Notes under the pieces: model-generated
Database searches by the model: none
The model's input: the letters and a program-made list of their open reading frames with translations, nothing else
What the model was told of the DNA's origin: nothing
Made by a program: the position numbers and the translations under genes
DNA from: Candidatus Thalassarchaeum sp.
GTDB lineage: Archaea > Thermoplasmatota > Poseidoniia > Poseidoniales > Thalassarchaeaceae
Direction of reading: 5' to 3'
Length of the DNA stretch: 64,000 nt
Assembly (NCBI GenBank): GCA_022449345.1
Contig: JAKURL010000002.1
Location: forward strand, 36,302-100,301
Shown here: positions 36,030-55,408 of the stretch, piece after piece
Numbering within the stretch: position 1 is the stretch's first letter
Layout: each line of letters opens with the position of its first letter

Positions 36030-39000
36030 ATGTCTATACCTCCTCAACTGCCGAGCAAGCGCAGGTATGCCTTGCTTCTTGCTGCATTGATGATTTTGTT
36101 GCCTTGGTCGGCATATTCTAGTGTAAATGAGTTAGATTCTGAGTTAGAAACTCGCGAGGTTTCGCAGGCGGCATGGGGTGCTTCCGGAAGCAACGACACC
36201 GGATGGATAGATTTGATCGCGACCGGAGCAGACCCTGTTAACGGAAGTTATGCGTACAGTGACCTATTCCTACCGTTTGCTCCGGGCGCTGAAATTTCCA
36301 ATTTAACCTTCGAGATAGCCGTCAACGGCTCGGCTGGTTATTGGGCTAACGAGCCACAACTGACTCTAATGGATACACAAACTCCAATCCTTGATTGGAG
36401 AGGTTATGGTGACCTTGGTCGGCAGGATGAGATGGAGAATAATCCGCCGACCGTACTCAATGGTACACTTAGCACTCATTTGAGACCCAACTCAATCTCA
36501 GATGCTTCTTGGGAACTGCCGGCCGGAGTGACACTCACAGATATGGTAATCGAGGCATTAAGGCCTGCCGATCCAAAGATATCCTACTCAGCAGTAGACA
36601 TAGAGATTCACGACACAGCGGTAAATCCAGTAGATGGCCGATTGTATCTATTGCTAGACGATGATCTTCTTCATCTAGACGCAAGGGCTCACAAGCAAAT
36701 TGTCGATATCGAAACAGGAATCATGGGAAGATCTCTAGCAATCGACGATGATTCTGGAATACTATTGATTGGAACAGAAGATGGCTCAGTGCTTTCACGC
36801 AGTTTGTCGAATTCTGCAATTCTGCCAGACCTGCGTACTAGTGATGGTTCTCAAAACGCCGGAATCTATGCCATAACAGTAGATGATCATGGAACAATTT
36901 GGGCGGCAGGAAATTGTACCATTTACTACAAGCCGATGGGGAATGTCGACTGGAGTGATTACGATTATTGCCAGTCGTTTAACATAGAGACTCCATCTGA
37001 CATTCTCATTATTGGCGATAGTGTCTACCTTGCAACCACTAGTTCTGGAGTACACATCATCAACTACATCACCGCTTCTTCTTCAGGCAGTGTTTCAGTC
37101 TCAATAGACTCTCAAATAGATTGGAGTACTCAGAATTTCCTTTCCTCAAACCTGATTACAGACCTCGAGATAGTTGGTAATAATCTTCTAATCGCGACCT
37201 ATGACACTGGAATCAATCGTAGAGACCTTACCTCACAATCTTGGATAGCCACTTGGTCAACAAATAACTGGTTGGCATCCAATCAGATTCACGGCTTGTC
37301 GCTTACCCCCGGCTGGCTTCATATCCTTGCTGGTACGACCATTCACGCCTATGATACCAATTCACTAATCTTCCAATCACAAAATCAACTTACTTCCCTC
37401 GGTTTGTATGGAAATGGTGCTATGGCCATTCCATGGCCTTCACATTCGGTTAGAGGCCCAATCACCTCCACAGCTCTGTTTAGCGATGGTTCTGGCACTT
37501 TGGGAATGCAGATTGGTGAGAACCCAGCAGGCGCTCTTACTCTTGTCAGTAGCCCATCTGTCGAAGGCATGGCGGTAGTCTCACGCATCAATGATGGTGC
37601 GTCGGGTGAGATTTGGGTTGCTGGGGGTAAAATAATCGATCGATTTGACGAATCAGATCGGGCTTGGGAGATTCCAATCGACATTAGTGACTACGTCAAC
37701 AATCCAGGTCAGATCGTTGCGATTGAACAGGATGGCAACGAGAAGGTTTGGATTGGAACGACTAATGCCGGAGTTCTGAGGCTAGAAAATACCGATGGAA
37801 CCTACATCGGAACTGTTTCAGGACTAAGTTCAACTCATGTTACTTCCTTATCTTACGACGATATCAACGGTTACTTGGTAGTAGGGCATAGCCAATCTGG
37901 AATTTCCATAATCGATACCAACCAGATGACATTAGTAGATACGATAACCACTTCCGATGGTTTAGATTCTGACTTCATAAATTCAGTTACAACTCGTTTT
38001 GGAATCGCCTACATCGCTACTCCGGATAAGGGAGTAATGCGTATCGAATTATCGACTTCGACAATCATCGGCTCGTGGCAATCACTCGGTGCCGATAATT
38101 TGGATGCAACACCGGTTGCAGTCGATGGTGACGTTGTTTACATCGGACTCTATGAGTTCGGTATTCTAGTCGTCGATAGACTAACTGGAGATATCTCAGA
38201 CCATTGGACACAGGATACCAACACTCTACCTGACGACGACGTTCTATCATTGGAAATGGACGATTTCGGTGGTCTATTAGTCGGCTCAGAGGGCTCCTTC
38301 TCCCGTTACGATGGCAGTACTTGGACCACTATGACAAGCAGTGGCCAATGGTGGAATCAACCTAGTGTATTCTACGATGTCACCAGCGACGGAGATGGGC
38401 TGTACGCTGGAACTAACAGAGGTGCTTGCAAGTGGGATTGGCAGTATCAATTCCAAGATTGTGTAAGCTCTGGTGATGGCCTCGAGAGTCGTTTCGTGTA
38501 TACCATAGAGATGCTAGCACCAAACCGTGCTTACACGGGTGGAAACTCCGGAGCTGGTATCGTCAATATGGATAATTTCTCAGTAATTGAGACTTGGACC
38601 GCCGGCGACAACACACAGCGCTCGCGTACGGTCAAGGTTGACGATATTCTCTACCTTGGATTCGAGAACACCGGCATAGCCCGATATGATTTGACAAATA
38701 ATCAGTGGTTGACTACTTGGGACGGAGATCAAGGATACATCAACGACGATGATGTAACCGCCTTAGTTCCAGGGGAAACATACGGAACAATTTGGGCAGG
38801 CGGAGATTTTGGTCTGACATTAATCGATGTCGTGAATGACGTAGTATTGATTGCTTGGGATAGAGGTTCGAATACCAACGGCCCTACACTTTCTAATTCA
38901 ATTCCTGCAGATATAGAAATCTACGGAGATGTATTGCATTACTCCACACAACGCTCAACCGGTTGGTGGGGCGGTGGCTCTGACAGCATCTATCGCATCA

Positions 39001-42000
39001 ATCTGACAACAAATTCTAGCATGACCACGCTTGAGGTTAACGATCAAACAGGTTGGACTGGAGTGGTGAACGGAATTGGAGTTGTAAACGACCAATTGTG
39101 GATTGGCATTAGACCTTCTCAGACTTGGAACGATGGAGATGGAACAATTGCTCGCTGGAATATGACCAACGAATCTTGGGAGGAAGATCTGGCAACAATC
39201 GGAAATGTTCTACGCGTTAATGCTCGATTCCTAGGTGATTGTTTCCCATTGAACACAAGTTCTTGTGAACTTTGGGTGGCGTATGGGAATTACATTCTAA
39301 GACGATTCAATGCAGATACAATGATGCTTCTAGATGAGTGGGTCGACGTTGACGGTCCAATTCGAGGAATGACCGAATTCGAAGGAGAATACCTATTCGC
39401 TAGCATGAATGGTATTCTTCGATGGAATCCAGTAAACGAAACTTGGCTAGATTCTTGGACTCCTGGAGACGGCTTACCATCGAGTTCTGAGGAAGAGTTC
39501 TACTCGATGGCGGTTATCGAAAACGATCTTTGGTTGGGTACAATGGAGTCCAGTGGCTGGAACTCAAACGCTCAGGTACTGAGAAAGAACGGAACAGACG
39601 GGAATTGGACATCTTGGGATTTAGGAACAGGAGACATCCCTGACGGATATCCAGCCGACATCAAGTTGTGTGATGATATTGTCCACATTGCTATCGGCGC
39701 TCGATTTTTCTGGGGCAATCAAGGTGGTGTTGCCCGTTATGACTTCGCAGACCATGATTCAGATTCCTTGACCAATGAATGGATTAGTGCGATGACTTCT
39801 GGTAGCTCGGGTTTATCCAATAATGATCCAAGGGCCGTGGCTTGCGATGAGAGCAACGACATTTTGTACATTGCATACGATACTGAGGGTGTAGGCATCG
39901 ATCGCTATAACTACAATACGGACACATACCTTTCCACCCTTACTTCAGTCGATGGAATCAGCGAGGACAGAATATTCCCTGGTGGATTGTTACATGACAA
40001 CAACGTCCTCTTGGCCGCTCACCAATTCGATAACCATGGAGGAATTTCTCGTTTGATTACTTCCGGAACAGCAACCGCAAATGGCCAAATCCTAGACCCC
40101 GGAATGGACGGCTGTTCTATCGAAAGAGCTCCTTCGTCTACAGGTCAAGTAGCCTACGCTGTGGGGCGCTCAGGTCAGACAACAGGACTGAACAGAGTCG
40201 ATAGGCTAGACAGTTCAGGATTAATCGCAAGTGGCTATGATGAACTCACTGGACTAACCAGTGGCCGCGTGATGGAAATAATCTCCAATGACACACATGT
40301 ATGGGTTACCTCATCCTTGGACTCTAACTCCTACTACGGGTCCTCGATTCTTCAGGGAGAAATTCTCTCGAATGGCTCTGTTAGATGGGAATTTGGTTAC
40401 AATTTCCGAGAGGATATAGTCAATGAAATGATGTTGGATGGTGAGACTCTATGGGTCACCACGGCAGGCCGAGGCCTGAAGGCAATTGACTTGAAACAGC
40501 GCCGTGTAACCTCCACTCCGCCGGCACTACACGCACAGATGGATGGAATGGTGTTGGAGAACGGTACGATGTATGTTGGACTAATGGGTAATCAAGGTTC
40601 AGCGGCCGGATTCCAGATGTTCAATACCCAAAATGCTCAGTGGGGTCATGGCAGTCTAATCGCCGGATTACCGAGCAACCTTGTGCGAGATTTCATCATT
40701 TACGGTGACCACATCATGATCGCTACCCATGGTGGAATTGGAATGTACAATACCACCCGTGACGATTGGGATAATCCGATAACCACAATCGATGGATTAC
40801 CTTCACCGATAATCACCCATTTACACGCCCTCAACACAACCATCCAGGGCGGTGGAAAGGTTCTGGCTGGCGGTGCAGCAGGTATGACGGTCCTGCATCA
40901 ACACAACCTTTCGGTCCTCAACACATTAGGATTCAATGATGGACTGATGGGTAATACCGTGAGTGGAATAGTAGAGGCAGGACCGAGTTCCCGCGTCGTT
41001 CAAAACGCCGATGGAACGAACACCACTCTTTACCACGACGCGTCGATATTCATCTCACACAATGGACAAGGGCCAACTCGACCCGGTGTAGCGGCCTGGG
41101 ATTTGGCCACCGATATGGCAAATGGTACTTACAATATCGACATGGTTCCAAGTAATGACATTAGGGCGATTGTTGCTGATGACTGGGGAGTTCACATCGC
41201 TACCGACGTCGCTCCTTTGGTACATTGGAACGGTAGCATGATGCAGATGGAAACTGGAGTTAGTACCAGTTCCTTACTTTCTTGGCCTCCATACGAGATG
41301 CACAGTGACGGCCAGCACATCGTGGTGATGAGTCCTCGTGGTCTCGACGTTGTAGATGTAGACGGAAGACACAATGTGGTGACTAGCCGAGTGATTACTG
41401 GTCTGCAAGGTGGATATGTCGACTTCAGCGGTTTCTATGCTGTTGGGAATGACGGTCTTCATGTCTACAAACCAGTAATTAGTCTGCAAGAGAATTCACG
41501 TGAGCATCAACGCCGTGCAGATCCGCTAACAGTATTGTATAGTGGCCGAAATTGGGATATTACCAATACAACTCATCCAGGAATGTCAACGGTTTTGGTA
41601 ACTCCTGATAATCCGATTGAGATTCCTGAGACCTCTAATGTTGCTGCCCCTGGTAAACTTCCGATGCACGTCGGAACAATGACGATGATGGCACCTCAAC
41701 GAGGTGCCTGGGTGTGGGCTCAGTCTACGTCGTTGAATTATACTGGAAGTTGGGATTTGGCTACCTCTAATGGAGGAATTCAACAGGCCTTCCAGTCAGC
41801 CATTTCTGCAGTAGGGCCTGGTACCTCTTCTGCAATTCTTCATGTCCAAATGCAGTCACCTCAGGATGGAGCCATTCAGGTTAGGTTGACTTATGATTGG
41901 GAGCGAATCGAGGCTCCAACTGTCATTACCAAACTTGAGGATAGACCCAATGATGGTGGAGGCGTAATCGAAGCCTCTTGGCTACCTGCAGAGGATGCTG

Positions 42001-44618
42001 CTTGGCATGCCTATAGATTGTATGTATGGGATTCGTCGGTTGACCCACTATGGGAACCAACTCAGGAAGACCTAGATTCATTCTCTACCTACATGAGATC
42101 CAACTTCTGGTCTCGCACAAATGCCACCATTACCCGAGCGGATAATGATGGACTAACCGAGCAATTGCGAGATGACCGTCAATACCGAGCAGCGGTGGTT
42201 ATCGAATATGCAGATGGCTCACTAGGTGTACCGATGGCATATCCTCACAATGTAACTCCGACTGATGAGATTCCAGCAGCCCCTGCTTGGATGACAGCTA
42301 ATCCAGTATCGGGAGGAGCAGCGGGTACCATCTTCCTAGAATGGGCCGCCTGTACAGAACTAGATCCGGATAGAGTAAGAATTTGGGCGGTCCAGCAGGA
42401 GATTACCAGTGCAGTAGGACTTTCTGACCCATTCGAATTCCATTGGAGTACCGGAAATACAACCGCCCTGCAGCTAGAAGGCGGAGTTGCTTACTGGTTT
42501 GCTGCAGTTTGTGTTGATGAGGCTGGACAGTCATCAATCGAGAACGCCACAATAATCGGACCTGTTGTTACTGCGGGTGGTTTGGATGATGGAATTCCAC
42601 CTGTTCCTATCACTGGAACAACAGCCATCGACGTTCCTAACGACGAAGGTGGTAGAATCAACGTCACTTGGGATGCAAATACCGAGGAGGACTGTACCTA
42701 CTACACGGTCTACACCTTGCCAGCCTCTGGCTGGCAACCCCCTTCAACGGTCGATGGTTGGCCAGTTGCAGGATATACAGACAGTTGTGAAACGACTTCG
42801 ATTATCATCGACTCTATAGGAGAAAGTAGTCTAATCGATGGAACGGTCTACTGGATAGGAGTAGTCGCTTACGATGATTGGGGCAATGGGGATGTCGACA
42901 ATGTATTGGTTGTCGACGCCACTCCTGAGGCAGATTTCGATGGTGAAGCGATACCACCAGACCGCGTAACTGGCCTCGAAGCTTGGGATTACCCAGATGA
43001 TGATGGAACGGCCATAGATATCCGTTGGAATCGCTCAGCCGCCGATGATTTCTCATTCTATACAGTCTGGGTATCCGAATACCCGTTGAATAATGTAACC
43101 GAGATATGGGAATTGTGTAGTGAAAATCCATCCTCGTGTGGTCTCGTTATCATTAACCAGCGTCAGTTTGGGGCAAATTTCCAGTTAGAATACACCGCGG
43201 AGAGAGCCCTTTACGGTAGTTCGGCAGATACCTTAGAGGCGACTCCAATCCACTCGATGATTCCGCTCTACGTGACAATCACCATTCACGATATCAGTGG
43301 AAATGTGCACCTAAGCGATCTTTCGGAACATATGGTCTTGGTCACTCCAATGGATAACCGTGGAGATATTTCTCCGCCAGACCGCCTAGAAGCGCCGGTA
43401 CTGAGAGATAGGCCCAACGATGCCGGAAATGCGATGTTCGTAGAATTCCAACAAAGTGATGCTTCTGACATTGCGGAATATTGGATTTACGCGGTAATTG
43501 ACACTCCAGTTCTATTGGAGAGAACCGATGACTTACACCCCGCGATGGTTATCGACAGGGAACAAGGTCTACCAGTTCTGCTAACCGAGTTCTCTGCTCA
43601 TGGAGATGACGAGGCGACACCACTGGTGCCAAACCGCCGAATTTACGTGGCGGTAGTCGCCGTTGATTCATCTGGCAATGCTTGGATGGACAACCTCGCT
43701 AGCACATGGATCGAGTTGTCCGACGAACTCTCCGCAGATCCATGTCCAGAGTGCCCAGATGTTAGTGGGCTACGGGCTAGTTGGAATGCTGCGGGTTCAC
43801 TGATTGAGGTAAATTGGGATAATGTCGAAGACCCGAAGTATGCAAGCTACTACGCCTTTGTCAGCCTTGACACATTCGATGATACACGTAACGCAACTTT
43901 GGTCAAGTCTGGAATGAGAGACACTATTTTGATTCTCAACGAATTCAACGGCGAGATGATTGACCGTGAAGAGAGATATTGGATTGAGATTGTAACTTGG
44001 AACGGCCAAGTCCACACATATCACGCCGACCCGATTGAGGTTTCACCTTGGGAGGAATCTTCCTTTGGTACAACCCAACCAGGAGATGATTCAGCAGGAG
44101 AGTCTTGGGTTGAGAGAATACTTGCAGGGGAGATGAACATGGTAATCCTCGCGCTATCGGTAGTAATGCTGCTAATCGGCGCACTGATGTTCATCAGACC
44201 AAGAGGAGAAGCGGCTCCAGAACCTTGGGAGATGGGCGCGCTCGAGGTCGAATTGGAAGAACAACTAGAGCGCGAGGCGGCAGGTCTCAGCGACGACGAA
44301 GAATTCGGCGTTGATGATTTGGAGATTGATGGTGGCTTGGTAGCCAATGCTCGGCGCAAAGACGGAGATGCTCCTGATTCAAGCGAGAGCGATTATACAG
44401 AGACAGCGGCGAGTGCTGGAGTACCTGTAGAAGAAGACCTCGGCCCAACACCATCTGCTGAAAGCGAGGTCATCGACGAATTACTCGGTGCCGAGGAAGA
44501 AGAATTAGATCTCGGCGATCTAGATGATATGGCCGATGACCTAAACTTGGATGAAAAGCCTGATGATGATTCCGAAGACGAGGATATTGACACCTCCTTC
44601 CTCGACGAGATGCTCTGA
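36030..44618 (+). CDS. giant secreted surface protein (2862 aa): signal peptide, many beta-propeller (Reg_prop/YVTN-like) repeats, FN3-like modules, a C-terminal TM anchor and an acidic cytoplasmic tail
   Basis: N-terminal signal; a repeating G..vW.GT..G.. pattern; C-terminal MVILALSVVMLLIGALMFI followed by a D/E-rich tail. Confidence 0.85.
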   Translation: MSIPPQLPSKRRYALLLAALMILLPWSAYSSVNELDSELETREVSQAAWGASGSNDTGWIDLIATGADPVNGSYAYSDLFLPFAPGAEISNLTFEIAVNGSAGYWANEPQLTLMDTQTPILDWRGYGDLGRQDEMENNPPTVLNGTLSTHLRPNSISDASWELPAGVTLTDMVIEALRPADPKISYSAVDIEIHDTAVNPVDGRLYLLLDDDLLHLDARAHKQIVDIETGIMGRSLAIDDDSGILLIGTEDGSVLSRSLSNSAILPDLRTSDGSQNAGIYAITVDDHGTIWAAGNCTIYYKPMGNVDWSDYDYCQSFNIETPSDILIIGDSVYLATTSSGVHIINYITASSSGSVSVSIDSQIDWSTQNFLSSNLITDLEIVGNNLLIATYDTGINRRDLTSQSWIATWSTNNWLASNQIHGLSLTPGWLHILAGTTIHAYDTNSLIFQSQNQLTSLGLYGNGAMAIPWPSHSVRGPITSTALFSDGSGTLGMQIGENPAGALTLVSSPSVEGMAVVSRINDGASGEIWVAGGKIIDRFDESDRAWEIPIDISDYVNNPGQIVAIEQDGNEKVWIGTTNAGVLRLENTDGTYIGTVSGLSSTHVTSLSYDDINGYLVVGHSQSGISIIDTNQMTLVDTITTSDGLDSDFINSVTTRFGIAYIATPDKGVMRIELSTSTIIGSWQSLGADNLDATPVAVDGDVVYIGLYEFGILVVDRLTGDISDHWTQDTNTLPDDDVLSLEMDDFGGLLVGSEGSFSRYDGSTWTTMTSSGQWWNQPSVFYDVTSDGDGLYAGTNRGACKWDWQYQFQDCVSSGDGLESRFVYTIEMLAPNRAYTGGNSGAGIVNMDNFSVIETWTAGDNTQRSRTVKVDDILYLGFENTGIARYDLTNNQWLTTWDGDQGYINDDDVTALVPGETYGTIWAGGDFGLTLIDVVNDVVLIAWDRGSNTNGPTLSNSIPADIEIYGDVLHYSTQRSTGWWGGGSDSIYRINLTTNSSMTTLEVNDQTGWTGVVNGIGVVNDQLWIGIRPSQTWNDGDGTIARWNMTNESWEEDLATIGNVLRVNARFLGDCFPLNTSSCELWVAYGNYILRRFNADTMMLLDEWVDVDGPIRGMTEFEGEYLFASMNGILRWNPVNETWLDSWTPGDGLPSSSEEEFYSMAVIENDLWLGTMESSGWNSNAQVLRKNGTDGNWTSWDLGTGDIPDGYPADIKLCDDIVHIAIGARFFWGNQGGVARYDFADHDSDSLTNEWISAMTSGSSGLSNNDPRAVACDESNDILYIAYDTEGVGIDRYNYNTDTYLSTLTSVDGISEDRIFPGGLLHDNNVLLAAHQFDNHGGISRLITSGTATANGQILDPGMDGCSIERAPSSTGQVAYAVGRSGQTTGLNRVDRLDSSGLIASGYDELTGLTSGRVMEIISNDTHVWVTSSLDSNSYYGSSILQGEILSNGSVRWEFGYNFREDIVNEMMLDGETLWVTTAGRGLKAIDLKQRRVTSTPPALHAQMDGMVLENGTMYVGLMGNQGSAAGFQMFNTQNAQWGHGSLIAGLPSNLVRDFIIYGDHIMIATHGGIGMYNTTRDDWDNPITTIDGLPSPIITHLHALNTTIQGGGKVLAGGAAGMTVLHQHNLSVLNTLGFNDGLMGNTVSGIVEAGPSSRVVQNADGTNTTLYHDASIFISHNGQGPTRPGVAAWDLATDMANGTYNIDMVPSNDIRAIVADDWGVHIATDVAPLVHWNGSMMQMETGVSTSSLLSWPPYEMHSDGQHIVVMSPRGLDVVDVDGRHNVVTSRVITGLQGGYVDFSGFYAVGNDGLHVYKPVISLQENSREHQRRADPLTVLYSGRNWDITNTTHPGMSTVLVTPDNPIEIPETSNVAAPGKLPMHVGTMTMMAPQRGAWVWAQSTSLNYTGSWDLATSNGGIQQAFQSAISAVGPGTSSAILHVQMQSPQDGAIQVRLTYDWERIEAPTVITKLEDRPNDGGGVIEASWLPAEDAAWHAYRLYVWDSSVDPLWEPTQEDLDSFSTYMRSNFWSRTNATITRADNDGLTEQLRDDRQYRAAVVIEYADGSLGVPMAYPHNVTPTDEIPAAPAWMTANPVSGGAAGTIFLEWAACTELDPDRVRIWAVQQEITSAVGLSDPFEFHWSTGNTTALQLEGGVAYWFAAVCVDEAGQSSIENATIIGPVVTAGGLDDGIPPVPITGTTAIDVPNDEGGRINVTWDANTEEDCTYYTVYTLPASGWQPPSTVDGWPVAGYTDSCETTSIIIDSIGESSLIDGTVYWIGVVAYDDWGNGDVDNVLVVDATPEADFDGEAIPPDRVTGLEAWDYPDDDGTAIDIRWNRSAADDFSFYTVWVSEYPLNNVTEIWELCSENPSSCGLVIINQRQFGANFQLEYTAERALYGSSADTLEATPIHSMIPLYVTITIHDISGNVHLSDLSEHMVLVTPMDNRGDISPPDRLEAPVLRDRPNDAGNAMFVEFQQSDASDIAEYWIYAVIDTPVLLERTDDLHPAMVIDREQGLPVLLTEFSAHGDDEATPLVPNRRIYVAVVAVDSSGNAWMDNLASTWIELSDELSADPCPECPDVSGLRASWNAAGSLIEVNWDNVEDPKYASYYAFVSLDTFDDTRNATLVKSGMRDTILILNEFNGEMIDREERYWIEIVTWNGQVHTYHADPIEVSPWEESSFGTTQPGDDSAGESWVERILAGEMNMVILALSVVMLLIGALMFIRPRGEAAPEPWEMGALEVELEEQLEREAAGLSDDEEFGVDDLEIDGGLVANARRKDGDAPDSSESDYTETAASAGVPVEEDLGPTPSAESEVIDELLGAEEEELDLGDLDDMADDLNLDEKPDDDSEDEDIDTSFLDEML

Positions 44619-48431: not shown

Positions 48432-49850
48432 ATGCAGAAAACAAAGAATGCGAGCATGATGATTGCGCTGCTCCTTGTTTTGATGGCTGGTTCCGTTGGC
48501 GTTTCCGCCGATGGTTCTGACCCACTCGACCCCTCCGACGGAGGGGCCGACTGGGACGGAGACGGCCTGACAAACGCAGAGGAGACAGCTGAAGGCACGG
48601 ACCCCACCAACCCCGACACTGACAACGATGGTCTACCGGACGGTTGGGAGGTTGCATACGGACTAAATCCAAACTCGGCTAGTGACGCTAACGCGGACCC
48701 AGACGGTGATGGATTGACGAACTCTCAGGAGTACGCGTCCGGAACCAACCCCAACGCGGCTGACACCGACGGTGATGGGCAGAACGACGCAAGCGATCCT
48801 TTCCCGAACGATCCGAACAACGGATCGATGTCGGATTCGGATGGCGACGGTATCCCAGATGCGTATGATCCGGACTACGGTGACAACGGAGAGGGAACTG
48901 GAGACGGCGGAACTGACGGTGGCGGAGATTCCGACCAAGACGGAGAGGGCCAAGGTCAGAACCAAGGATCCCAATCCGGTCAAGACGGTCAGCAGGGCAG
49001 CGGTCAGCAGGGTGGAGAACAATCCAACCAGCAAGACAACGGCCAAGGCCAGCAGCAAGGCGGAGAACAATCCGGCCAGCAGGGTGACCAAGAGAGTCAA
49101 GACCAGAATGGTAACAACCAGAATGGTCAGAACCAGCAGCAGCAAGGCCAGACCCAAGACAACAGTCAGGGTCAGCAGGGCCAGCAGTCCGACCAGCAGC
49201 AGAGTCAGCAGCTCGACAACCAAGACCAGAACGGTGAGAACGACAACGATGGCGATGGTATCCCAGACGACCTGGACTTCGATGATGACCAGGACGGCAT
49301 CCCCGACAATGTGGATGAATTCCCTGAGGACCACGACAACGACGGCATCAATGACGCTGAGGATGATGATGACGATGGCGACGGCATAGACGACCGCGAG
49401 GAAGTCAATGACGGCGATCCTAACTCAGATATCTACGATCACGACAACGATGGCGTTCGCGACAACATCGATTTCGACATCGACAATGACGGCATCGACA
49501 ATTGGAATGACGTTGGACCGAACGGTGAGGACTACTCACGCGATCACGACAACGACGGACTAAATGACGGAGTCGACCCAGACGACGATAACGACGACAT
49601 CCTAGATGTCGACGAGATCGACGGCGCTATCGGTCTCTGGAGATACGACCACGACAACGATGGTCTAACCGACAGAGTCGATACCGATGACGACAACGAC
49701 GGACTTTCCGACTGGTTCGAGCAGAACGATGGCTGGGATAACACCGGCCAGTTCGATCACGACAACGACGGCATCCCAGATCATCTGGATGACGACGATG
49801 ACGCCGACGGCATCCTCGATGAGGATGAAAACGACGGCAGCCTACTGTGA
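48432..49850 (+). CDS. secreted, highly acidic protein with thrombospondin-type-3-like Ca-binding Asp repeats (DxDxDGxxDxxD) flanking a Q/G/N-rich low-complexity core
   Basis: Signal peptide; at least 12 repeats of the DHDNDG..D..D / DTDGDG type; a roughly 100-aa Q/G/N/S tract. Confidence 0.75.
   Translation: MQKTKNASMMIALLLVLMAGSVGVSADGSDPLDPSDGGADWDGDGLTNAEETAEGTDPTNPDTDNDGLPDGWEVAYGLNPNSASDANADPDGDGLTNSQEYASGTNPNAADTDGDGQNDASDPFPNDPNNGSMSDSDGDGIPDAYDPDYGDNGEGTGDGGTDGGGDSDQDGEGQGQNQGSQSGQDGQQGSGQQGGEQSNQQDNGQGQQQGGEQSGQQGDQESQDQNGNNQNGQNQQQQGQTQDNSQGQQGQQSDQQQSQQLDNQDQNGENDNDGDGIPDDLDFDDDQDGIPDNVDEFPEDHDNDGINDAEDDDDDGDGIDDREEVNDGDPNSDIYDHDNDGVRDNIDFDIDNDGIDNWNDVGPNGEDYSRDHDNDGLNDGVDPDDDNDDILDVDEIDGAIGLWRYDHDNDGLTDRVDTDDDNDGLSDWFEQNDGWDNTGQFDHDNDGIPDHLDDDDDADGILDEDENDGSLL
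49240..49840 (+). repeat. DNA-level tandem degenerate repeats (gaccacgacaacgacggc...) encoding the Asp-repeat units
   Basis: The gacaacgacgg / gatgacgacg motifs recur many times; explains the spurious antisense ORFs. Confidence 0.6.
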
Positions 49851-52236: not shown

Positions 52237-52313
52237 GGGCGATTGGTGTAGTCTGGATATCATCTGGCGCTTCGGACGCTAGGACACGGGTTCGAATCCT
52301 GTATCGCCCACCA
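52237..52313 (+). tRNA. tRNA-Arg (anticodon TCG), CCA encoded
   Basis: Cloverleaf folded by hand: acceptor GGGCGAT/ATCGCCC, anticodon stem TGGCG/CGCTA with loop CTTCGGA, T-arm ACGGG-TTCGAAT-CCTGT, discriminator A, then CCA. Confidence 0.85.
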
Positions 52314-52317
52314 CTAA
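52302..52317. repeat. attL-like copy of a 16-bp direct repeat (tatcgcccaccactaa) overlapping the 3' end of tRNA-Arg
   Basis: Exact 16/16 match to 54016-54031. Confidence 0.8.
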
Positions 52318-52341: not shown

Positions 52342-53382
52342 TCAAAGCAAATCCGAGTATGGAATTAAGTGCTTAATTTCCCCATACAAATTATTTCTTT
52401 GTTGTTTAAGTTCTTTGATTTCGATACTAACCGTTTCTTTGTATTTCTGCATTTTTCCTATATTTTTGGTTAGTTTTTGAATTTCCTCATCATTCTTTTT
52501 TATCTTGTCCTGTTTCCTTTCTTCTTTCCGCAATAATAGATTTGCATCTCGTACTTCCCTCTCAGCTTTTGCAACCTTGTCCGCTAATTTGCCTTCCTTC
52601 TTTTTGTTCATTTCTCGAGCGCTATCATTTCTAGCCTCTGCAGCACCATAACCAATGCCCAAGACAATAATACTTCCACAACAGCCCAACACAGGCATAG
52701 GCTCGTCCATGCTGTAACTTTCAGCGGCACTACTGGTAAACCAATTTGTTCTTTCATCATTTCCGTTGGAACAATCTTCTTTGTCATCTAGAACCTTAGA
52801 ACCATGAATCGTCTCTCCATTTCCACAATCAAATCCTTGCTCAAAATATGAATCCCTTTGAGTTTCCCAGTGCATCATACCGAGAGCCAAAATAATAATC
52901 GCTGCGATCCACCATCCAAGCAAGAATCCCTCGGAATCAACATAGACTGGATGTCTGTTAAGTTCTCTTCTCTTTTCATCCAATTGAACCTTTTTTGTTA
53001 CTTTTTTTACATTTTCTCTCAGTTCAACAAGTGTCCCAGAACTGATAGTTTTTTCTGCCCTACTTGTCCTTGAATAACGGATGATTCTCTTCTTTAATTC
53101 CTTTTTATTTCCAGAGACCGGCAGTCCATATCCGTGTAATATATCCTTCAATTGATTTACAGTTAGAGAATCGGGGATCGAGTCTCCCCACAACTGAGTT
53201 AAGTCATCAAGATCAAGTTGCTGGAATTGATTGTCAGATTCTAACTTCTCAATAAGTTTCTTTGATTTAGCCAATTCTTTAGAGTTAATTTTCTTCTTTT
53301 CTTGCAATTTAGCAATTTCTGCATTTTTTTTATAGATTTCTTTGAGAGATTTTTTGAGGAATTTCAGGTCTCTTTTCCCCAT
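52342..53382 (-). CDS. element cargo: coiled-coil protein with a SAP-like motif, two TM helices flanking a Cys-containing extracytoplasmic loop, and a K/E-rich C-terminal coiled coil
   Basis: LTVNQLKDILHGYGLPVSGNKKELKKRI SAP-like; TMs FLLGWWIAAIIILALGMM and VLGCCGSIIVLGIGYGAA; low-GC codon usage. Confidence 0.6.
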   Translation of the reverse strand: MGKRDLKFLKKSLKEIYKKNAEIAKLQEKKKINSKELAKSKKLIEKLESDNQFQQLDLDDLTQLWGDSIPDSLTVNQLKDILHGYGLPVSGNKKELKKRIIRYSRTSRAEKTISSGTLVELRENVKKVTKKVQLDEKRRELNRHPVYVDSEGFLLGWWIAAIIILALGMMHWETQRDSYFEQGFDCGNGETIHGSKVLDDKEDCSNGNDERTNWFTSSAAESYSMDEPMPVLGCCGSIIVLGIGYGAAEARNDSAREMNKKKEGKLADKVAKAEREVRDANLLLRKEERKQDKIKKNDEEIQKLTKNIGKMQKYKETVSIEIKELKQQRNNLYGEIKHLIPYSDLL

Positions 53383-53931
53383 TCAATCACCTAATCTCTT
53401 GTTTAATTGGAAATGAGCATCATCAACCGATTCGATAACTTGTTTCGCCTGTTTAATGTCCGCAAAGGACAATTTTGAGAAATGTTCAACTTTGACATCG
53501 TGGTCCTTAATTATGGTTTGAAGGTCCTCTATCTGGACAATTGCATATTCAGGATATTTTTTTGAATATTCCAATATTTTTTCTAATTCATCTTCGATTC
53601 CAAGGATAATCATTTTCAAATCTCCGACGAAATTTTCTTCCTTTTCTTTTCTCTCCAAATATCCTTTTACGTCCCATGCAATACTAGATAATGTGTCCAA
53701 TTTATTATCCAATTCAACAAGTCCACTCATGGTAGCAATTTGAAGTTCAGCGACGGATCCAATTGAATTTAGGATTAAATTTGTTGAACGTCTAATATCT
53801 TCAGATGTTTCTCTTTGCATAGCCCTCATTCTTCCGATGTCGGACTTCATTGACCTTAATTTGACGGAATTATACCCTGAGAATCCAAGACCGAAACCGC
53901 TACCCCAAGAGGTCTTTGGACGCTTGCTCAT
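53383..53931 (-). CDS. element cargo: 182-aa predicted helical cytoplasmic protein, unknown function
   Basis: ORF abuts the downstream gene with a 0-nt gap, which suggests an operon; same low GC. Confidence 0.55.
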   Translation of the reverse strand: MSKRPKTSWGSGFGLGFSGYNSVKLRSMKSDIGRMRAMQRETSEDIRRSTNLILNSIGSVAELQIATMSGLVELDNKLDTLSSIAWDVKGYLERKEKEENFVGDLKMIILGIEDELEKILEYSKKYPEYAIVQIEDLQTIIKDHDVKVEHFSKLSFADIKQAKQVIESVDDAHFQLNKRLGD

Positions 53932-54015
53932 TGATTATGCGTTAGTCCTTTCAAACTTAATCTCACCGCAATGTAATTTCTAGTCGGTGTAACTCATAAT
54001 TTGAACTGTAATCAT

Positions 54016-54031
54016 TATCGCCCACCACTAA
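54016..54031. repeat. attR-like copy of the 16-bp direct repeat (tatcgcccaccactaa)
   Basis: Exact match to 52302-52317. Confidence 0.8.
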
Positions 54032-54277
54032 CTCTCCACGGGGTCTTCCTTAGACCTCACTTTCTTTATCCAGCGGAATAGTAGTCTCGAGAATACCATT
54101 GAGAATGCTAGGAAAACTAGTGAGTACCACCAGGGGTTATTCTCGCTAGTGGCGATGAAATAGGTCACAATTAGAATGCCCATTCCGTAGAAGGCTCGAA
54201 AGATCGAGTAGGCAATGAATGACTTGACCAATGGATTTGCAAGAAACCGTTGCAACCAAGTTTGCTCAGGCAATTGG

Positions 54278-55408
54278 CTAATCCTCTCGCCTCCAATGAC
54301 TAATCTTGTCTCCACCGACCTCAATTTCTCTGAATTGTTGCAGACCAGCGGAAACCAATTCGGATTCAGAGAACACCGTTCCGTTTCCACTCAACTCGAT
54401 AGGCGATTGGCATAGGTGAGCTCTGTCGACTAATCCAGCTGCCAAGAATCTCCTCCATGTGTTTGGGCCGCCTTCAACGAGAAGTGATTGGGTTCCTCGA
54501 TCGCCAAGGAAATCTAGGATGCGAGCGATTGGGATTTCACCATCATCAGCCGCTAGGACTGCTCGCTCGACGTTTTCTGCATCCGAATCTGGTAATTCGA
54601 ATGGCTCGGCGTGAATCAGCAGTGTAGGTGCATGGCCATCATTCAGTAATTTGCAATCTGAGGGAGTTCTACCATTAGGATCAATGATAATGCGTGTAGG
54701 TGGATTTCGTGGCCCAATATCTGGTCCGCGTACCGTCAAAGAGGGGTCATCTCGAACCACTGTGTCAACCCCAACTAGAATCGCCATAGAATCAGCCCGA
54801 AGAGCATGAACAATCTCCAATGATTCCGCAGAGGAAAATCGCTGGGCAGGCTCGTTGGGATCACAATCAACTCTTCCATTTGCATCAATTGCAGCCTTCA
54901 ACAGAATCTCCGGGCGCATATTTTCGCACCAATGCATGAATTCACTCATCTGAGCATTGCATTCGTCAGCCAGAAGCCCAGAATCGACCTCAACTTCTGA
55001 TTTCATCAGTGTTGCAGCACCATCTCCACGAACTGTTGGGTTTGGATCATCAGCACCGATTACAACTCTCTTGACTCCTGCCCAAAGTAAGGCCTCAGTG
55101 CAAGGAGGAGTTCTCCCAAAGTGATTGCATGGCTCTAATGTAACATAGGCTGTAGAGCCCTGAGTTGGGACACCCTTTGCCTCAGCATCGGCAATCGCCA
55201 TTTGTTCTGCGTGCAAACCCCCCAAGTGGTCGTGCCACCCCTCAGCGATGATTTCTCCATTCTGAACTAGCACACATCCAACTAACGGGTTAGGCATTAC
55301 TCGATGCCTACCACGCTCGGCGAGCTCGATGGCTCGCCACATGAATTGTGCATCATCGTCCATGCTGTTCGGACCTTGCGAATGCCCCATCACACTTGAT
55401 TCCTCCAT
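54278..55408 (-). CDS. ribD: bifunctional riboflavin biosynthesis protein RibD (pyrimidine deaminase plus reductase), bacterial type
   Basis: CMP/dCMP-type deaminase zinc motif HAE...PCxxC (HAEQMAI...EPCNHFGRTPPC) and a RibD_C reductase half. Confidence 0.85.
   Translation of the reverse strand: MEESSVMGHSQGPNSMDDDAQFMWRAIELAERGRHRVMPNPLVGCVLVQNGEIIAEGWHDHLGGLHAEQMAIADAEAKGVPTQGSTAYVTLEPCNHFGRTPPCTEALLWAGVKRVVIGADDPNPTVRGDGAATLMKSEVEVDSGLLADECNAQMSEFMHWCENMRPEILLKAAIDANGRVDCDPNEPAQRFSSAESLEIVHALRADSMAILVGVDTVVRDDPSLTVRGPDIGPRNPPTRIIIDPNGRTPSDCKLLNDGHAPTLLIHAEPFELPDSDAENVERAVLAADDGEIPIARILDFLGDRGTQSLLVEGGPNTWRRFLAAGLVDRAHLCQSPIELSGNGTVFSESELVSAGLQQFREIEVGGDKISHWRRED

What the first reader, a model, noticed from the sequence alone, without database searches (positions are those of the whole stretch)
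52342..53931. Two-gene cargo of the island: a SAP-motif/coiled-coil two-TM protein plus a 182-aa helical partner
The 346-aa product has an N-terminal K/E coiled coil, a SAP-like DNA-binding motif (LTVNQLKDILHGYGLPVSGNKKELKKRI), a TM, a Cys-containing extracytoplasmic loop (CGNG...CSNG), a second TM carrying a CC pair, and a long C-terminal coiled coil. The upstream 182-aa protein (GFGLGFSGY N-terminus, helical) abuts it with no gap, which suggests translational coupling. Neither protein matches any family I recognise. A membrane-tethered DNA-binding coiled-coil protein encoded on a mobile island could act in segregation or anchoring, in superinfection exclusion, or as an abortive-infection or defence pair.
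Basis: partly seen in the sequence, partly recalled or inferred. Interest (0 to 1): 0.55.

Follow-up and report, generated by a model that had tools for sequence, protein, structure and literature searches.

The report
Mobile two-gene membrane/DNA-tether cassette, archaeal
A 1.7-kb low-GC cassette sits beside a tRNA gene in a marine planktonic archaeon and encodes a rare, undescribed pair of proteins, a small helical protein and a membrane-anchored coiled-coil protein with a DNA-binding SAP domain, which moves between genomes as a unit and whose function is not yet known.

Summary
The 182-aa and 346-aa ORFs exist and abut (TGA then ATG, with a Shine-Dalgarno inside the last codons of the upstream gene). 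The SAP motif is a real SAP domain: Pfam 42 bits against a cut-off of 24, plus hits to solved Tho1 SAP structures. The Cys loop is a reduced LDL-receptor-A-like module, and the topology is N-in/C-in with two TM segments.

The pair lies in a 1,714-bp, 36.5% GC segment. This segment is bounded by a perfect 16-nt direct repeat of the tRNA-Arg(TCG) 3' end in a Marine Group IIb (Thalassarchaeaceae) chromosome. No recombinase was found among the window ORFs examined.

The pair is a conserved module. Only 114 cluster representatives exist among 1.84 billion proteins, and those whose source is evident come from marine metagenomes. The small gene is followed by the large gene in every locus that extends far enough. 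About a quarter of representatives are long enough to be single-chain fusions. Identical cassettes occur in different chromosomal contexts, some next to a serine recombinase, HNH or GIY-YIG genes.

SAP, the TM hairpin and the LDLa loop are each dispensable in some members. The core is a helical domain, a coiled coil and a C-terminal LIPYS tail. It matches nothing in Pfam, PADLOC, PHROGs, NCBIfam, PDB or BFVD.

My best guess is an envelope-level exclusion or abortive-infection module on a non-autonomous cassette. The function is inferred, not shown.

The parts
52237..52313 (+). tRNA-Arg(TCG). Its 3' end is the integration target (attB/attL).
   Evidence: ARAGORN. Rfam tRNA, 51.1 bits. The same tRNA with the same downstream CTAA occurs in 13 related MGIIb genomes.
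52302..52317 (+). attL: left copy of the perfect 16-nt direct repeat TATCGCCCACCACTAA (the last 12 nt of the tRNA plus CTAA).
   Evidence: the repeat finder family D12. There are 2 matches in 64 kb against 0 expected, even with 2 mismatches allowed.
52342..53382 (-). Large subunit, 346 aa. Order of parts: N-terminal coiled-coil helix, SAP, TM1, LDLa-like ecto loop, TM2, C-terminal coiled coil, LIPYSDLL tail.
   Evidence: ORF. Pfam. Orthologues P0001 (68% identity) and P0002 (31%). Family alignment A2. AlphaFold2 model.
53218..53382 (-). N-terminal helix of the large subunit (residues 1-55, motif MGKxDLxFLKxTLxEI). Family-wide core element.
   Evidence: pLDDT 78-88. Conserved in split and fused members, including members without a TM segment.
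53074..53169 (-). SAP (helix-extended loop-helix) domain, residues 72-103. Accessory module.
   Evidence: PF02037, 42.2 bits against 23.9. PDB hits to the Tho1, MKL1 and SIZ1 SAP domains. Absent in L002, L003 and L026; duplicated in L010.
52867..52929 (-). TM1 (residues 152-172).
   Evidence: Hydropathy 2.22, with a basic N-terminal flank.
52750..52839 (-). LDL-receptor class A-like module in the acidic extracytoplasmic loop (residues 182-211; FDCGNG...DCSNGNDE). It has only 2 of the 6 canonical Cys.
   Evidence: PF00057, 22.6 bits (cut-off 24.1) in the window protein. The L001 and L066 orthologues score 24.8 and 26.9. Weak LDLR/VLDLR hits in PDB. Absent in L013 and in the TM-hairpin-only members.
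52642..52698 (-). TM2 (residues 229-247, with the CC pair).
   Evidence: Hydropathy 1.71, with a basic C-terminal flank.
52345..52641 (-). C-terminal coiled coil (residues 248-338) and the invariant tail LIPYSDLL (339-346).
   Evidence: AlphaFold2 predicts one long helix 236-342, with pLDDT 80-89 over residues 290-340. I336, L339, I340, P341, Y342 and S343 are invariant in A2. The tail is present in all complete members listed.
53383..53931 (-). Small subunit, 182 aa: invariant N-terminal (K/R)RP(K/R)(T/S)S motif, then an all-helical domain.
   Evidence: ORF. 80 clusters at 90% identity. 114 representatives among 1.84 billion. Alignments A1, A3 and A4. AlphaFold2 predicts all helices, with pLDDT 70-83 for residues 100-180.
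53386..53392 (-). Shine-Dalgarno AGGTGAT for the large gene, inside the LGD codons of the small gene. The stop and the start codon abut (TGAATG).
   Evidence: Sequence read directly.
53947..53955 (-). Conserved upstream motif TTTGAAAGG, 16-24 nt before the small-gene ATG. Candidate promoter or regulatory element that travels with the cassette.
   Evidence: The same (C/T)TTGAAAGG motif lies at the same distance in L001, L067, L025 (both units), L033 and L035. Its function is not tested.
53980..54015 (-). Remnant of the 3' end of a tauE/safE-like gene (encodes MITVQIMSYTD*), inside the repeat-bounded segment.
   Evidence: Matches the C terminus of the 250-aa TauE-like gene (…MITVQIVSYLN*) that abuts tRNA-Arg in L042-L054. 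The 14-mer TGAACTGTAATCAT is shared. L001 begins with the same remnant.
54016..54031 (+). attR: right copy of the 16-nt direct repeat. It overlaps the stop codon of the host 2-TM gene.
54028..54324 (-). Host flank: a conserved small 2-TM protein gene (about 98 aa in relatives). Homology to sister genomes resumes here.
   Evidence: blastn to L042-L054 resumes at window position 54044-54064. The orthologues are 98-aa ORFs.

Best explanation
SHOWN.
The two genes form one conserved, co-translated module of an undescribed protein family.
- The small subunit is an all-helical domain with an invariant basic N-terminal RP motif.
- The large subunit has an N-terminal helix and a long C-terminal helix that ends in an invariant LIPYS tail.
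- Variable modules are inserted between these two helices. In the window protein they are a SAP domain, a two-TM hairpin and an extracytoplasmic LDLa-like loop.
- In about a quarter of family representatives the protein is long enough for the two subunits to be one polypeptide.
- The module travels as a compact cassette of about 1.7 kb. Here it lies at the 3' end of tRNA-Arg, between 16-nt direct repeats, in a Marine Group IIb archaeon and without its own recombinase.

INFERRED (structure).
The N- and C-terminal helices of the large subunit pair into an antiparallel stalk. The tip of the stalk is the membrane hairpin. The base of the stalk is capped by the small subunit, probably through the LIPYS tail. 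The SAP domain then sits on the cytoplasmic face close to the membrane, and the Ca-binding-type loop sits outside.

INFERRED (function; my committed guess).
The complex is an envelope-level exclusion or abortive-infection device carried by a non-autonomous cassette. The cassette would be mobilised in trans by recombinases such as the serine recombinase found next to some family members. The complex would act at the membrane, where foreign DNA enters. The SAP domain would bind that DNA, or the ecto loop would sense or occupy virus contact sites. The TM hairpin and coiled-coil assembly would either block entry or compromise the membrane.
For: Module and coupling:
- The small gene is followed by the large gene in every locus that extends far enough.
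- The stop and start codons abut, and a Shine-Dalgarno lies just upstream.
- Independent fusions exist: L025/L032 (272 aa), L030 (465 aa), P0084, and 27 of the 114 representatives are 290 aa or longer with the small domain at the N terminus.
- Both genes are under purifying selection but evolve fast: dN/dS is 0.30 and 0.56, against 0.076 for the adjacent Trm gene.

Mobility:
- The 16-nt direct repeat of the tRNA 3' end, and the GC step.
- The same cassette sits at the same tRNA in L001.
- A truncated copy faces tRNA-Ala in L065.
- An identical cassette occurs in three or more different left contexts, with a sharp breakpoint 194 nt upstream of the small gene.
- L010 and L011 carry the same cassette but diverge 77 nt upstream.
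- A serine recombinase lies directly upstream in L025, L030, L033 and L062.
- HNH or GIY-YIG genes are neighbours.

Lean towards defence or exclusion:
- The cassette lies in a hypervariable locus that differs in all 13 relatives.
- Nearly all contigs carrying close relatives of the window pair end within a few hundred bases of it (all 2.3 kb or shorter). This fits strain-level presence/absence.
- One member sits next to Mokosh-like (MkoA, 2e-53) and DolB/PDC-M37B-like genes.
- Sensor-like inserts (SAP x0/1/2, LDLa, Zn finger) are swapped on a constant core.
- No family member was found in 2.9 million viral contigs.

Topology. Confident terminal helices.
Against: - There is no functional evidence of any kind.
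- Neither protein hits PADLOC.
- No enzymatic effector domain is present.
- The defence-island association rests on a single locus (L059).
- Members without a TM segment or a SAP domain (L062, L030, P0084, several 400-490-aa fusions) cannot act at the membrane or through SAP. A membrane/DNA mechanism can therefore hold for this subfamily at most.
- The stalk-and-cap model is inferred from pLDDT patterns and from the fusions, not from a computed complex. Both AlphaFold2 models are of low overall confidence (pLDDT about 59-60).
- The cassette is not a clean insertion. It includes a tauE remnant and no strictly empty site was found in relatives. The repeat could therefore mark a rearrangement rather than a recent integration.
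Confidence: 0.35

Rival explanations
1. Maintenance or anchoring module of a small archaeal mobile element. The complex tethers the element's DNA (through SAP and/or the basic RP motif of the small subunit) to the membrane, for segregation, replication or retention. The window cassette would be a stripped-down, integrated remnant of such an element.
For: - In L025, L030, L033 and L062 the pair follows a serine recombinase directly, in one co-oriented gene string with HNH or GIY-YIG genes. This looks like the backbone of a small element.
- L026 places the pair among small HTH, Zn-finger and a second SAP/HeH-TM gene.
- The SAP domain is a DNA-binding fold.
- L025/L032 carry two tandem paralogous units, as expected for element-specific functions.
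Against: - There is no NTPase, no Rep and no centromere-like repeats.
- SAP and the TM hairpin are missing in the very subfamily that is linked to the recombinase (L062, L030).
- No circular contig was found: none has a terminal overlap.
- The pair persists as the only cargo of recombinase-less cassettes in chromosomes, where partition would be useless.
Confidence: 0.2
2. Addiction (toxin-antitoxin-like) pair. The two-TM coiled-coil protein is a membrane-damaging toxin held in check by the small upstream protein, and this stabilises the cassette in the island.
For: - The genes are arranged as two tightly coupled genes with the small one first.
- The pair is the sole cargo of a minimal cassette that lies in variable loci and near recombinases.
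- It evolves fast.
- A weak PHROG hit to a 'bacteriocin production or immunity' family covers TM2 and the C-terminal coil, but E=0.018 is not significant.
Against: - Frequent natural fusion of the two partners into one chain is not what one expects of a toxin and a labile antitoxin.
- Family members without a TM segment exist.
- At 182 and 346 aa, with long coiled coils, the proteins are atypical for toxin-antitoxin pairs.
- There are no hits to any toxin or antitoxin family.
Confidence: 0.12
3. A flexible-genome cell-envelope gene pair that benefits the host. Examples would be a Ca-dependent surface interaction or an envelope scaffold. It would have no role in conflicts with mobile elements and would simply hitch-hike in a variable tRNA-proximal locus.
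For: - In relatives the same locus holds ordinary variable genes: a TauE-like exporter, a PKD-like secreted protein, cysteine synthase and a monooxygenase.
- The ecto loop is an LDLa-like ligand- or Ca-binding module.
- Other members sit beside surface proteins: a TIG-domain protein in L060/L061 and a secreted protein in L027.
Against: - GC is 13 points below the host.
- The direct repeat of the tRNA end.
- Sharp cassette breakpoints in several contexts.
- Linkage to recombinase, HNH and GIY-YIG genes.
- The ecto loop is dispensable.
Confidence: 0.12
4. The pair is itself part of the mobility or transfer machinery of a minimal element. It could be a novel recombination or synapsis factor, or a membrane/vesicle DNA-export device.
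For: - Cassettes with only these two genes recur with defined ends: inverted repeats of 107 nt in L008 and 30 nt in L013, a GGGTAGCG-type end motif, and direct repeats at the tRNA.
- The only constant content of all these mobile units is the pair.
- The proteins combine membrane and DNA-binding features.
- Poseidoniales are known to host small enigmatic elements that are enriched in vesicle-density fractions (Charybdis elements, bioRxiv 10.1101/2025.08.03.668216).
Against: - No catalytic motif was recognised.
- A bona fide serine recombinase accompanies some members, which suggests the pair is not the recombinase.
- The family is absent from IMG/VR, where Charybdis elements abound.
- No circular forms were seen.
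Confidence: 0.08
5. Decaying leftover of a larger integrated element, with no present function.
For: There is no integrase. A tauE remnant lies inside the repeat-bounded segment. The locus is rearranged relative to all relatives.
Against: - Both ORFs are intact.
- dN/dS is below 1.
- A 100%-identical small protein is found in other metagenomes (P0003).
- The same two-gene unit is conserved across 114 clusters, with its own Shine-Dalgarno and upstream motif.
Confidence: 0.08

Closest known systems
SAP / HeH domain proteins (Pfam PF02037; e.g. yeast Tho1, Ku70, PIAS/SIZ1)
   Same: Residues 72-103 score as a bona fide SAP domain and align to solved SAP structures. The predicted fold is helix-extended loop-helix.
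   Different: SAP is mostly eukaryotic and nuclear. Here it is an optional insert (0, 1 or 2 copies) in an archaeal mobile-element membrane protein. DNA binding is not tested.
Inner-nuclear-membrane HeH/LEM proteins (Heh1/Src1, Heh2, LEM2, MAN1). This comparison is architectural only and comes from my own knowledge.
   Same: The order of parts is the same: an N-terminal HeH/SAP-type DNA-binding motif, TM, a short extracytoplasmic (lumenal) loop, TM, then a C-terminal domain facing the DNA side. It is a membrane-to-DNA tether layout.
   Different: No sequence relationship was detected beyond the SAP motif. The C-terminal part here is a coiled coil with a LIPYS tail, not a winged-helix MSC domain. 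The partner subunit has no counterpart. The host is a euryarchaeon, not an Asgard archaeon or a eukaryote.
Two-gene membrane plus DNA-binding exclusion or defence systems (lambda RexAB; Kiwa KwaAB; Zorya ZorAB with its long coiled-coil tail). This is a functional analogy from my own knowledge.
   Same: Each is a mobile-element- or island-borne pair (or set) that combines a membrane component with a DNA-binding or coiled-coil signalling part and acts at the envelope against incoming DNA.
   Different: No homology was found: PADLOC gave no hit for either protein. Here the DNA-binding motif is on the membrane subunit. No channel-type four-TM protein, nuclease or motor is present. The activity is unproven.
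LDL-receptor class A module (PF00057)
   Same: The F-x-C-x-N-G...D-x-x-D-C-x-N-G-x-D-E pattern matches profile positions 6-36 of 37, including the acidic Ca-cage residues. Two orthologues pass the Pfam cut-off.
   Different: Only 2 of the 6 cysteines remain, so at most one disulfide can form. The window copy scores just below the cut-off. It is a single copy in a 56-residue loop between two TM helices.
tRNA-targeting integrative elements and the islands they build (e.g. tycheposons of Prochlorococcus, bioRxiv 10.1101/2020.12.28.424599; Charybdis elements of Poseidoniales, bioRxiv 10.1101/2025.08.03.668216)
   Same: The cargo is flanked by a full tRNA and a partial-tRNA repeat. The tRNA-proximal locus is variable and differs between strains. 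Degenerate, integrase-less remnants and extra partial tRNAs occur. Poseidoniales elements integrate next to tRNAs.
   Different: No integrase or replication module lies in or near the cassette. The cassette is only 1.7 kb with two genes. The family was not found in IMG/VR, where Charybdis elements are abundant.

Membership tests
SAP domain (PF02037) | Sequence profile match above the curated threshold | tested here: met
   42.2 bits against a gathering score of 23.9, E=5.7e-11, residues 72-103. Orthologues score 31-52 bits.
SAP domain (PF02037) | Two amphipathic helices separated by an extended loop (helix-extended loop-helix) | tested here: met
   AlphaFold2 places helices at 75-84 and 93-108 at pLDDT 66-74. 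The family profile aligns to the solved SAP domains of Tho1 (E=5e-6), MKL1 and SIZ1.
SAP domain (PF02037) | Binds nucleic acid | not testable with these tools
   Needs a gel-shift or similar assay with the purified N-terminal region.
LDL-receptor class A module (PF00057) | Profile match above the curated threshold | tested here: inconclusive
   The window protein scores 22.6 bits against 24.1. Orthologues L001 (24.8) and L066 (26.9) pass; others score 19-23.
LDL-receptor class A module (PF00057) | Six cysteines forming three disulfides | tested here: not met
   Only two Cys lie in the loop (C186, C204) in all family members.
LDL-receptor class A module (PF00057) | Acidic Ca-binding cluster D-x-x-x-D-x-x-D-E next to the fifth Cys | tested here: met
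   The window has DDKEDCSNGNDE. The family consensus is DGxDDCSNGHDE, nearly invariant. Ca binding itself is not testable here.
tRNA-integrated mobile element | Direct repeat made of the tRNA 3' end flanking the element | tested here: met
   Perfect 16-nt repeat at 52302-52317 and 54016-54031, with 0 expected by chance.
tRNA-integrated mobile element | Composition or ancestry distinct from the host flanks | tested here: met
   GC 0.365 against 0.495-0.499. The pair is absent from 13 related genomes at this locus.
tRNA-integrated mobile element | Integrase or recombinase encoded in the element | tested here: not met
   The segment holds only the two genes. The window has no serine-recombinase homologue, and none of about 30 large window ORFs scanned has a recombinase domain.
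tRNA-integrated mobile element | Empty site (tRNA directly followed by the distal flank) in a relative | tested here: inconclusive
   The attB core TATCGCCCACCACTAA is native in relatives, but every relative has other genes (0.8-4.3 kb) between the tRNA and the 2-TM gene. A tauE remnant lies inside the segment.
Known anti-phage defence systems (PADLOC-DB v2) | Homology of at least one component to a catalogued defence protein | tested here: not met
   No family at E<=1 for either protein or for the L025 fusion. L030 gives only a coiled-coil JetC match at E=0.12.
Known anti-phage defence systems (PADLOC-DB v2) | Recurrent location in defence islands | tested here: inconclusive
   One locus (L059) has MkoA-like and DolB-like neighbours. 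Other contexts are recombinase/HNH, surface proteins or housekeeping genes. The contigs are too short for statistics.
Toxin-antitoxin module | Two small, tightly coupled genes, with one product neutralising the other | tested here: inconclusive
   Coupling is present. Frequent covalent fusion of the partners and their sizes argue against it. Toxicity is not testable here.
Viral or virion protein families (PHROGs, BFVD, IMG/VR) | Sequence or fold match to virus proteins, or presence on viral contigs | tested here: not met
   PHROGs: nothing below E=0.01. BFVD: no match at E<=0.001 for either model. Three IMG/VR scans were negative.
Integron-type gene cassette | Cassette bounded by imperfect palindromic recombination sites next to an integron integrase | not tested
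   Inverted repeats flank the pair in L008 and L013, and palindromes lie upstream in L003 and L021. No such repeat is seen in the window and no tyrosine integrase in any locus. A systematic search could not be run.

The most novel reading that the evidence does not exclude
The small protein and the coiled-coil protein, split or fused, are the entire functional content of a new class of minimal archaeal mobile element. The complex tethers the element's own DNA to the cytoplasmic membrane and promotes its transfer or mobilisation, for example by export in membrane vesicles or as a new recombination or synapsis factor. It would then not be passive cargo. This would give marine Group II archaea a two-gene selfish DNA-transfer device built on a SAP-TM-TM layout, which is otherwise known only from eukaryotic nuclear-envelope tethers.
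Probability: 0.08. Interest if true: 0.85.

Novelty: categorically new. Interest (0 to 1): 0.58.

Why it matters
Marine Group II archaea are among the most abundant planktonic archaea. They are uncultured, and their mobile elements and anti-virus systems are almost unknown.

This module is a compact, clearly delimited candidate for either kind of function. It is cheap to synthesise, at 1.6 kb for two genes or one gene for the natural fusions, so it can be tested heterologously.

It also shows three things:
- SAP/HeH and LDLa-like modules, both usually thought of as eukaryotic, are used as interchangeable inserts on an archaeal mobile-element protein.
- Recombinase-less mini-cassettes move between chromosomal sites in these archaea.
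- The tRNA-Arg(TCG) locus of MGIIb is a recurrent integration and variation hot spot.

If the exclusion or defence guess is right, this is a new system with no relative in current catalogues.

Tried and rejected
- **Circular mini-replicon.** All homologue contigs are short (2.3 kb or less for the close relatives), which suggested complete circles. None has a terminal overlap. The ends carry host genes or a tRNA, so these are assembly breaks at a strain-variable cassette.
- **SSV-type integrase split by integration.** Neither ORF overlaps the att repeats and neither resembles a recombinase, so I rejected this.
- **Other RNA genes as targets.** Rfam at a permissive threshold found nothing in 12 loci except the L001 tRNA.
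- **GTDB species representatives.** The small-family scan found no member. I used the second scan to identify the host.
- **IMG/VR.** Three scans were negative. A fourth query (A4) was too diverse to scan.
- **Charybdis elements of Poseidoniales.** The paper mentions no SAP or coiled-coil proteins, and the family is absent from IMG/VR, so I rejected a link.
- **Protein family libraries.** PADLOC, PHROGs and NCBIfam gave nothing significant. Pfam gave nothing for ten fused members.
- **Fold searches.**
  - BFVD gave nothing at E<=0.001.
  - AFDB50 was not available.
- **PDB sequence search with the small family.** It returned only weak heptad-repeat matches, such as coronavirus spike HR1 at E about 0.07. 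I treat these as compositional.
- **C-terminal HbYX or PIP-box reading of LIPYSDLL.** The Tyr is not at position -2 and there is no Qxx(L/I) pattern, so I dropped it (by reading the alignment).
- **Integrase elsewhere in the window.** None was found.


Full report
**1. Observation**

The stop codon of the upstream gene (TGA) is followed at once by the ATG of the downstream gene. A Shine-Dalgarno AGGTGAT is encoded by the last three codons (LGD) of the small protein, so translational coupling is plausible.

The 'SAP-like' segment is a real SAP domain:
- Pfam PF02037 gives 42.2 bits against a cut-off of 23.9.
- A family profile hits the solved SAP domains of Tho1, MKL1 and SIZ1.
- AlphaFold2 puts two helices at 75-84 and 93-108.

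The Cys loop matches the LDL-receptor class A profile. The window protein scores 22.6 bits, just under the 24.1 cut-off, and the L001 and L066 orthologues score above it. The loop keeps the acidic Ca-cage motif DCSNGNDE but only two of the six cysteines.

Two hydrophobic segments (152-172 and 229-247) have basic cytoplasmic flanks and an acidic loop between them (4 K+R against 14 D+E). Both termini are therefore cytoplasmic.

**2. The island**

tRNA-Arg(TCG) lies at 52237-52313. Its last 12 nt plus CTAA form a perfect 16-nt direct repeat at 52302-52317 and 54016-54031, with none expected by chance. Between the repeats GC is 0.365, against 0.495-0.499 in the flanks.

The flanks are housekeeping genes: FEN1, a THUMP methyltransferase, RibD and a DAG-kinase-like gene. 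About 30 large window ORFs were scanned and none is a recombinase.

The methyltransferase identifies the host as Marine Group IIb (Thalassarchaeaceae / Poseidoniales), at 86-95% identity to MAGs and SAGs. In 13 relatives the interval between this tRNA and the conserved 2-TM gene is never empty and never the same:
- about 0.8 kb, a TauE-like gene;
- about 1.7 kb, a PKD-like protein plus TauE;
- 1.8, 3.0 and 4.3 kb of other genes.

One relative (L048) has a 143-bp mini-insert bounded by a repeat of about 30 nt from the same tRNA end. The locus is therefore a recurrent integration and variation hot spot.

The repeat-bounded segment of the window ends, next to attR, with a 36-nt remnant of the 3' end of a tauE-like gene: MITVQIMSYTD*, against MITVQIVSYLN* in relatives. 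The L001 contig carries the same cassette at the same tRNA and begins with the same remnant. The simplest history, which is an inference, has three steps:
- The pair first sat between tauE and the tRNA.
- A segment including the tauE tail was excised using the tRNA core.
- That segment was re-integrated at the tRNA of a genome lacking tauE, or the locus was rearranged at the core.

**3. The family**

Direct searches found very few relatives:
- 2 clusters for the large protein and 7 for the small one.
- A profile of the small family found 80 clusters at 90% identity.
- An exhaustive HMMER scan of 1.84 billion representatives found only 114 at E<=0.001.

The contigs whose names reveal a source are marine. 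Nearly all contigs that carry close relatives of the window pair are 2.3 kb or shorter and end within a few hundred bases of the pair. This fits a strain-variable cassette that breaks assemblies.

In every locus that extends far enough, the small gene is followed by the large gene. Twenty-seven of the 114 representatives are 290 aa or longer with the small domain at the N terminus. The ones I read continue into a coiled coil and end in a hydrophobic-hydrophobic-Pro motif. Independent fusions also occur in L025/L032 (272 aa), L030 (465 aa) and P0084.

Comparison of members separates a constant core from optional inserts. The constant core is:
- the small helical domain, with its invariant N-terminal (K/R)RP(K/R)(T/S)S;
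- the N-terminal helix of the large protein (MGKxDLxFLKxTLxEI);
- a long C-terminal helix;
- the tail LIPYS(D/E/N).

The optional inserts are:
- SAP, in 0, 1 or 2 copies;
- the TM hairpin, present in most members but absent in L062, L030 and P0084;
- the LDLa-like loop;
- a DnaJ-type Zn finger in L025.

**4. Mobility elsewhere**

- The same cassette occurs in three different left contexts (L067/L070; L068 next to NDK; L069). The shared sequence ends sharply 194 nt upstream of the small gene.
- L010 and L011 diverge 77 nt upstream.
- L059 and L060/L061 encode the same small protein in different neighbourhoods.
- L008 is flanked by 107-nt inverted repeats and L013 by 30-nt ones.
- L065 holds a truncated copy facing the 3' end of tRNA-Ala.
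- In L025, L030, L033 and L062 a serine recombinase (Resolvase plus Recombinase domains) lies directly upstream in the same orientation. HNH or GIY-YIG genes lie downstream.
- A (C/T)TTGAAAGG motif precedes the small gene in distant subfamilies.

I read the window cassette as a non-autonomous member of this group.

**5. Searches for function**

None of these gave a significant match beyond SAP and LDLa:
- PADLOC, PHROGs and NCBIfam;
- Pfam on ten fused members;
- PDB by sequence;
- BFVD.

The small-subunit model (pLDDT 59.8) is an all-helical bundle that resembles thousands of structures. The large-subunit model (pLDDT 59.4) is confident only for the two terminal helices. Three IMG/VR scans found no member. 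Against L001, dN/dS is 0.30 for the small gene and 0.56 for the large gene, compared with 0.076 for the neighbouring methyltransferase. That is constrained but fast evolution.

**6. Mechanism**

Shown: the pair is a co-inherited, probably co-translated unit. It is mobile. In this subfamily it is membrane-anchored, with a cytoplasmic SAP domain and an external LDLa-like loop.

Inferred from the fusions and from the pLDDT pattern: the terminal helices of the large subunit form an antiparallel stalk. The membrane hairpin is at its tip, and the small subunit caps the base through the LIPYS tail.

My committed functional guess, at about 0.35, is an envelope-level exclusion or abortive-infection device. 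The reasons are:
- the hypervariable location;
- the strain-level presence/absence;
- the swapping of sensor-like inserts on a constant core;
- one defence-island context, with MkoA-like and DolB-like neighbours;
- the absence of the family from viral contigs.

The rivals are element maintenance or anchoring (0.2), an addiction pair (0.12), a host envelope function (0.12), mobility or transfer machinery (0.08) and a functionless remnant (0.08). Members without a TM segment or a SAP domain limit any membrane/DNA mechanism to a subfamily.

**7. Comparison with what is known**

Domain membership in SAP is met. Membership in LDLa is partial: the cysteine criterion fails.

As a system, the closest analogies are functional rather than homologous: lambda RexAB, Kiwa and Zorya. 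The layout SAP-TM-loop-TM-C-terminal domain mirrors eukaryotic HeH/LEM nuclear-envelope tethers, with no detectable homology beyond SAP. The mobility resembles tRNA-targeting island builders such as tycheposons and the tRNA-proximal integration of Charybdis elements in Poseidoniales, but the cassette has no integrase and the family is not found in IMG/VR.

**8. Verdict**

The core family is undescribed and matches no known kind of system. Its function is unresolved, and so is how a recombinase-less cassette moves.

Noticed in passing
window 53980-54015 (minus strand): A 36-nt remnant of the 3' end of a tauE/safE-like gene (MITVQIMSYTD*) lies inside the repeat-bounded segment, next to attR. In sister genomes the intact 250-aa gene abuts tRNA-Arg. 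L001 starts with the same remnant.
   Followed up: yes
window 8587-9933 (+): The host chromosome encodes a second SAP-domain protein of 448 aa. It has an N-terminal Zn-ribbon-like CxxC pair, a long acidic region, a SAP domain at 229-260 (25.4 bits) and a Pro-rich stretch. It has no TM segment. SAP domains are therefore not confined to the cassette in this archaeon.
   Followed up: partly
L048 7380-7560 (related MGIIb genome): A 143-bp mini-insert is bounded by a direct repeat of about 30 nt from the same tRNA-Arg 3' end. This is independent evidence that the tRNA is a recurrent recombination target.
   Followed up: partly
L065 39-488: A truncated small-family gene (the first 67 residues, then decay) faces the 3' end of tRNA-Ala(TGC). 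This is a second tRNA associated with the family.
   Followed up: partly
window 53947-53955; L001, L067, L025 (two units), L033, L035 upstream regions: A conserved (C/T)TTGAAAGG motif lies about 16-35 nt upstream of the small-gene start in subfamilies that share only about 33% protein identity. It could be a promoter or an operator carried by the cassette.
   Followed up: partly
L008 50-156 / 1984-2090; L013 8-37 / 1632-1661; L003 130-195; L067 about 760: In other subfamilies the pair is flanked by inverted repeats (107 nt at 87% in L008; 30 nt in L013). GGGTA(C/G)C-type palindromes and a GGGTAGCGT motif sit at the left cassette boundary. The window cassette has no such repeats.
   Followed up: partly
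L025 57-3726 and L032: This compact gene string contains a serine recombinase, a small subunit, a large subunit (with a Zn finger instead of SAP), a second unit in which the small and large subunits are fused without a TM segment (272 aa), and an HNH protein. It looks like the autonomous form of the element.
   Followed up: partly
L059 2349-10843: The pair sits beside a Fer4_12 radical-SAM-activase-like gene, a ClpB-like AAA+ protein (PADLOC DolB/PDC-M37B), two unknown proteins and a 1307-aa SF1 helicase (PADLOC MkoA, 2e-53). This is a defence-island-like context. The identical small protein in L060/L061 lies next to a TIG-domain surface protein instead.
   Followed up: partly
L026 5551-6353: Directly downstream of the pair lie a 94-aa TM protein and a 173-aa protein with an N-terminal SAP/HeH-like motif (LTVAELKFLCQEKGISV) followed by TM segments. 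This is a second SAP-plus-membrane design in the same element.
   Followed up: no
window 36030-44618 (+) and 24757-28551 (-): A 2862-aa ORF has only weak beta-propeller matches, and a 1264-aa ORF has no Pfam match. Both lie in regions of somewhat lower GC (0.45-0.48). They are probably giant surface proteins typical of MGII.
   Followed up: no
window 48432-49850 (+): A 472-aa extremely acidic, D/N/G/Q-rich secreted protein has five bacterial TSP3 (thrombospondin type 3) Ca-binding repeats.
   Followed up: no
window 53383-53392: The conserved C-terminal LGD of the small protein in this subfamily coincides with the Shine-Dalgarno (AGGTGAT) of the large gene. The conservation of LGD may therefore reflect the ribosome-binding site rather than protein function.
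   Followed up: no
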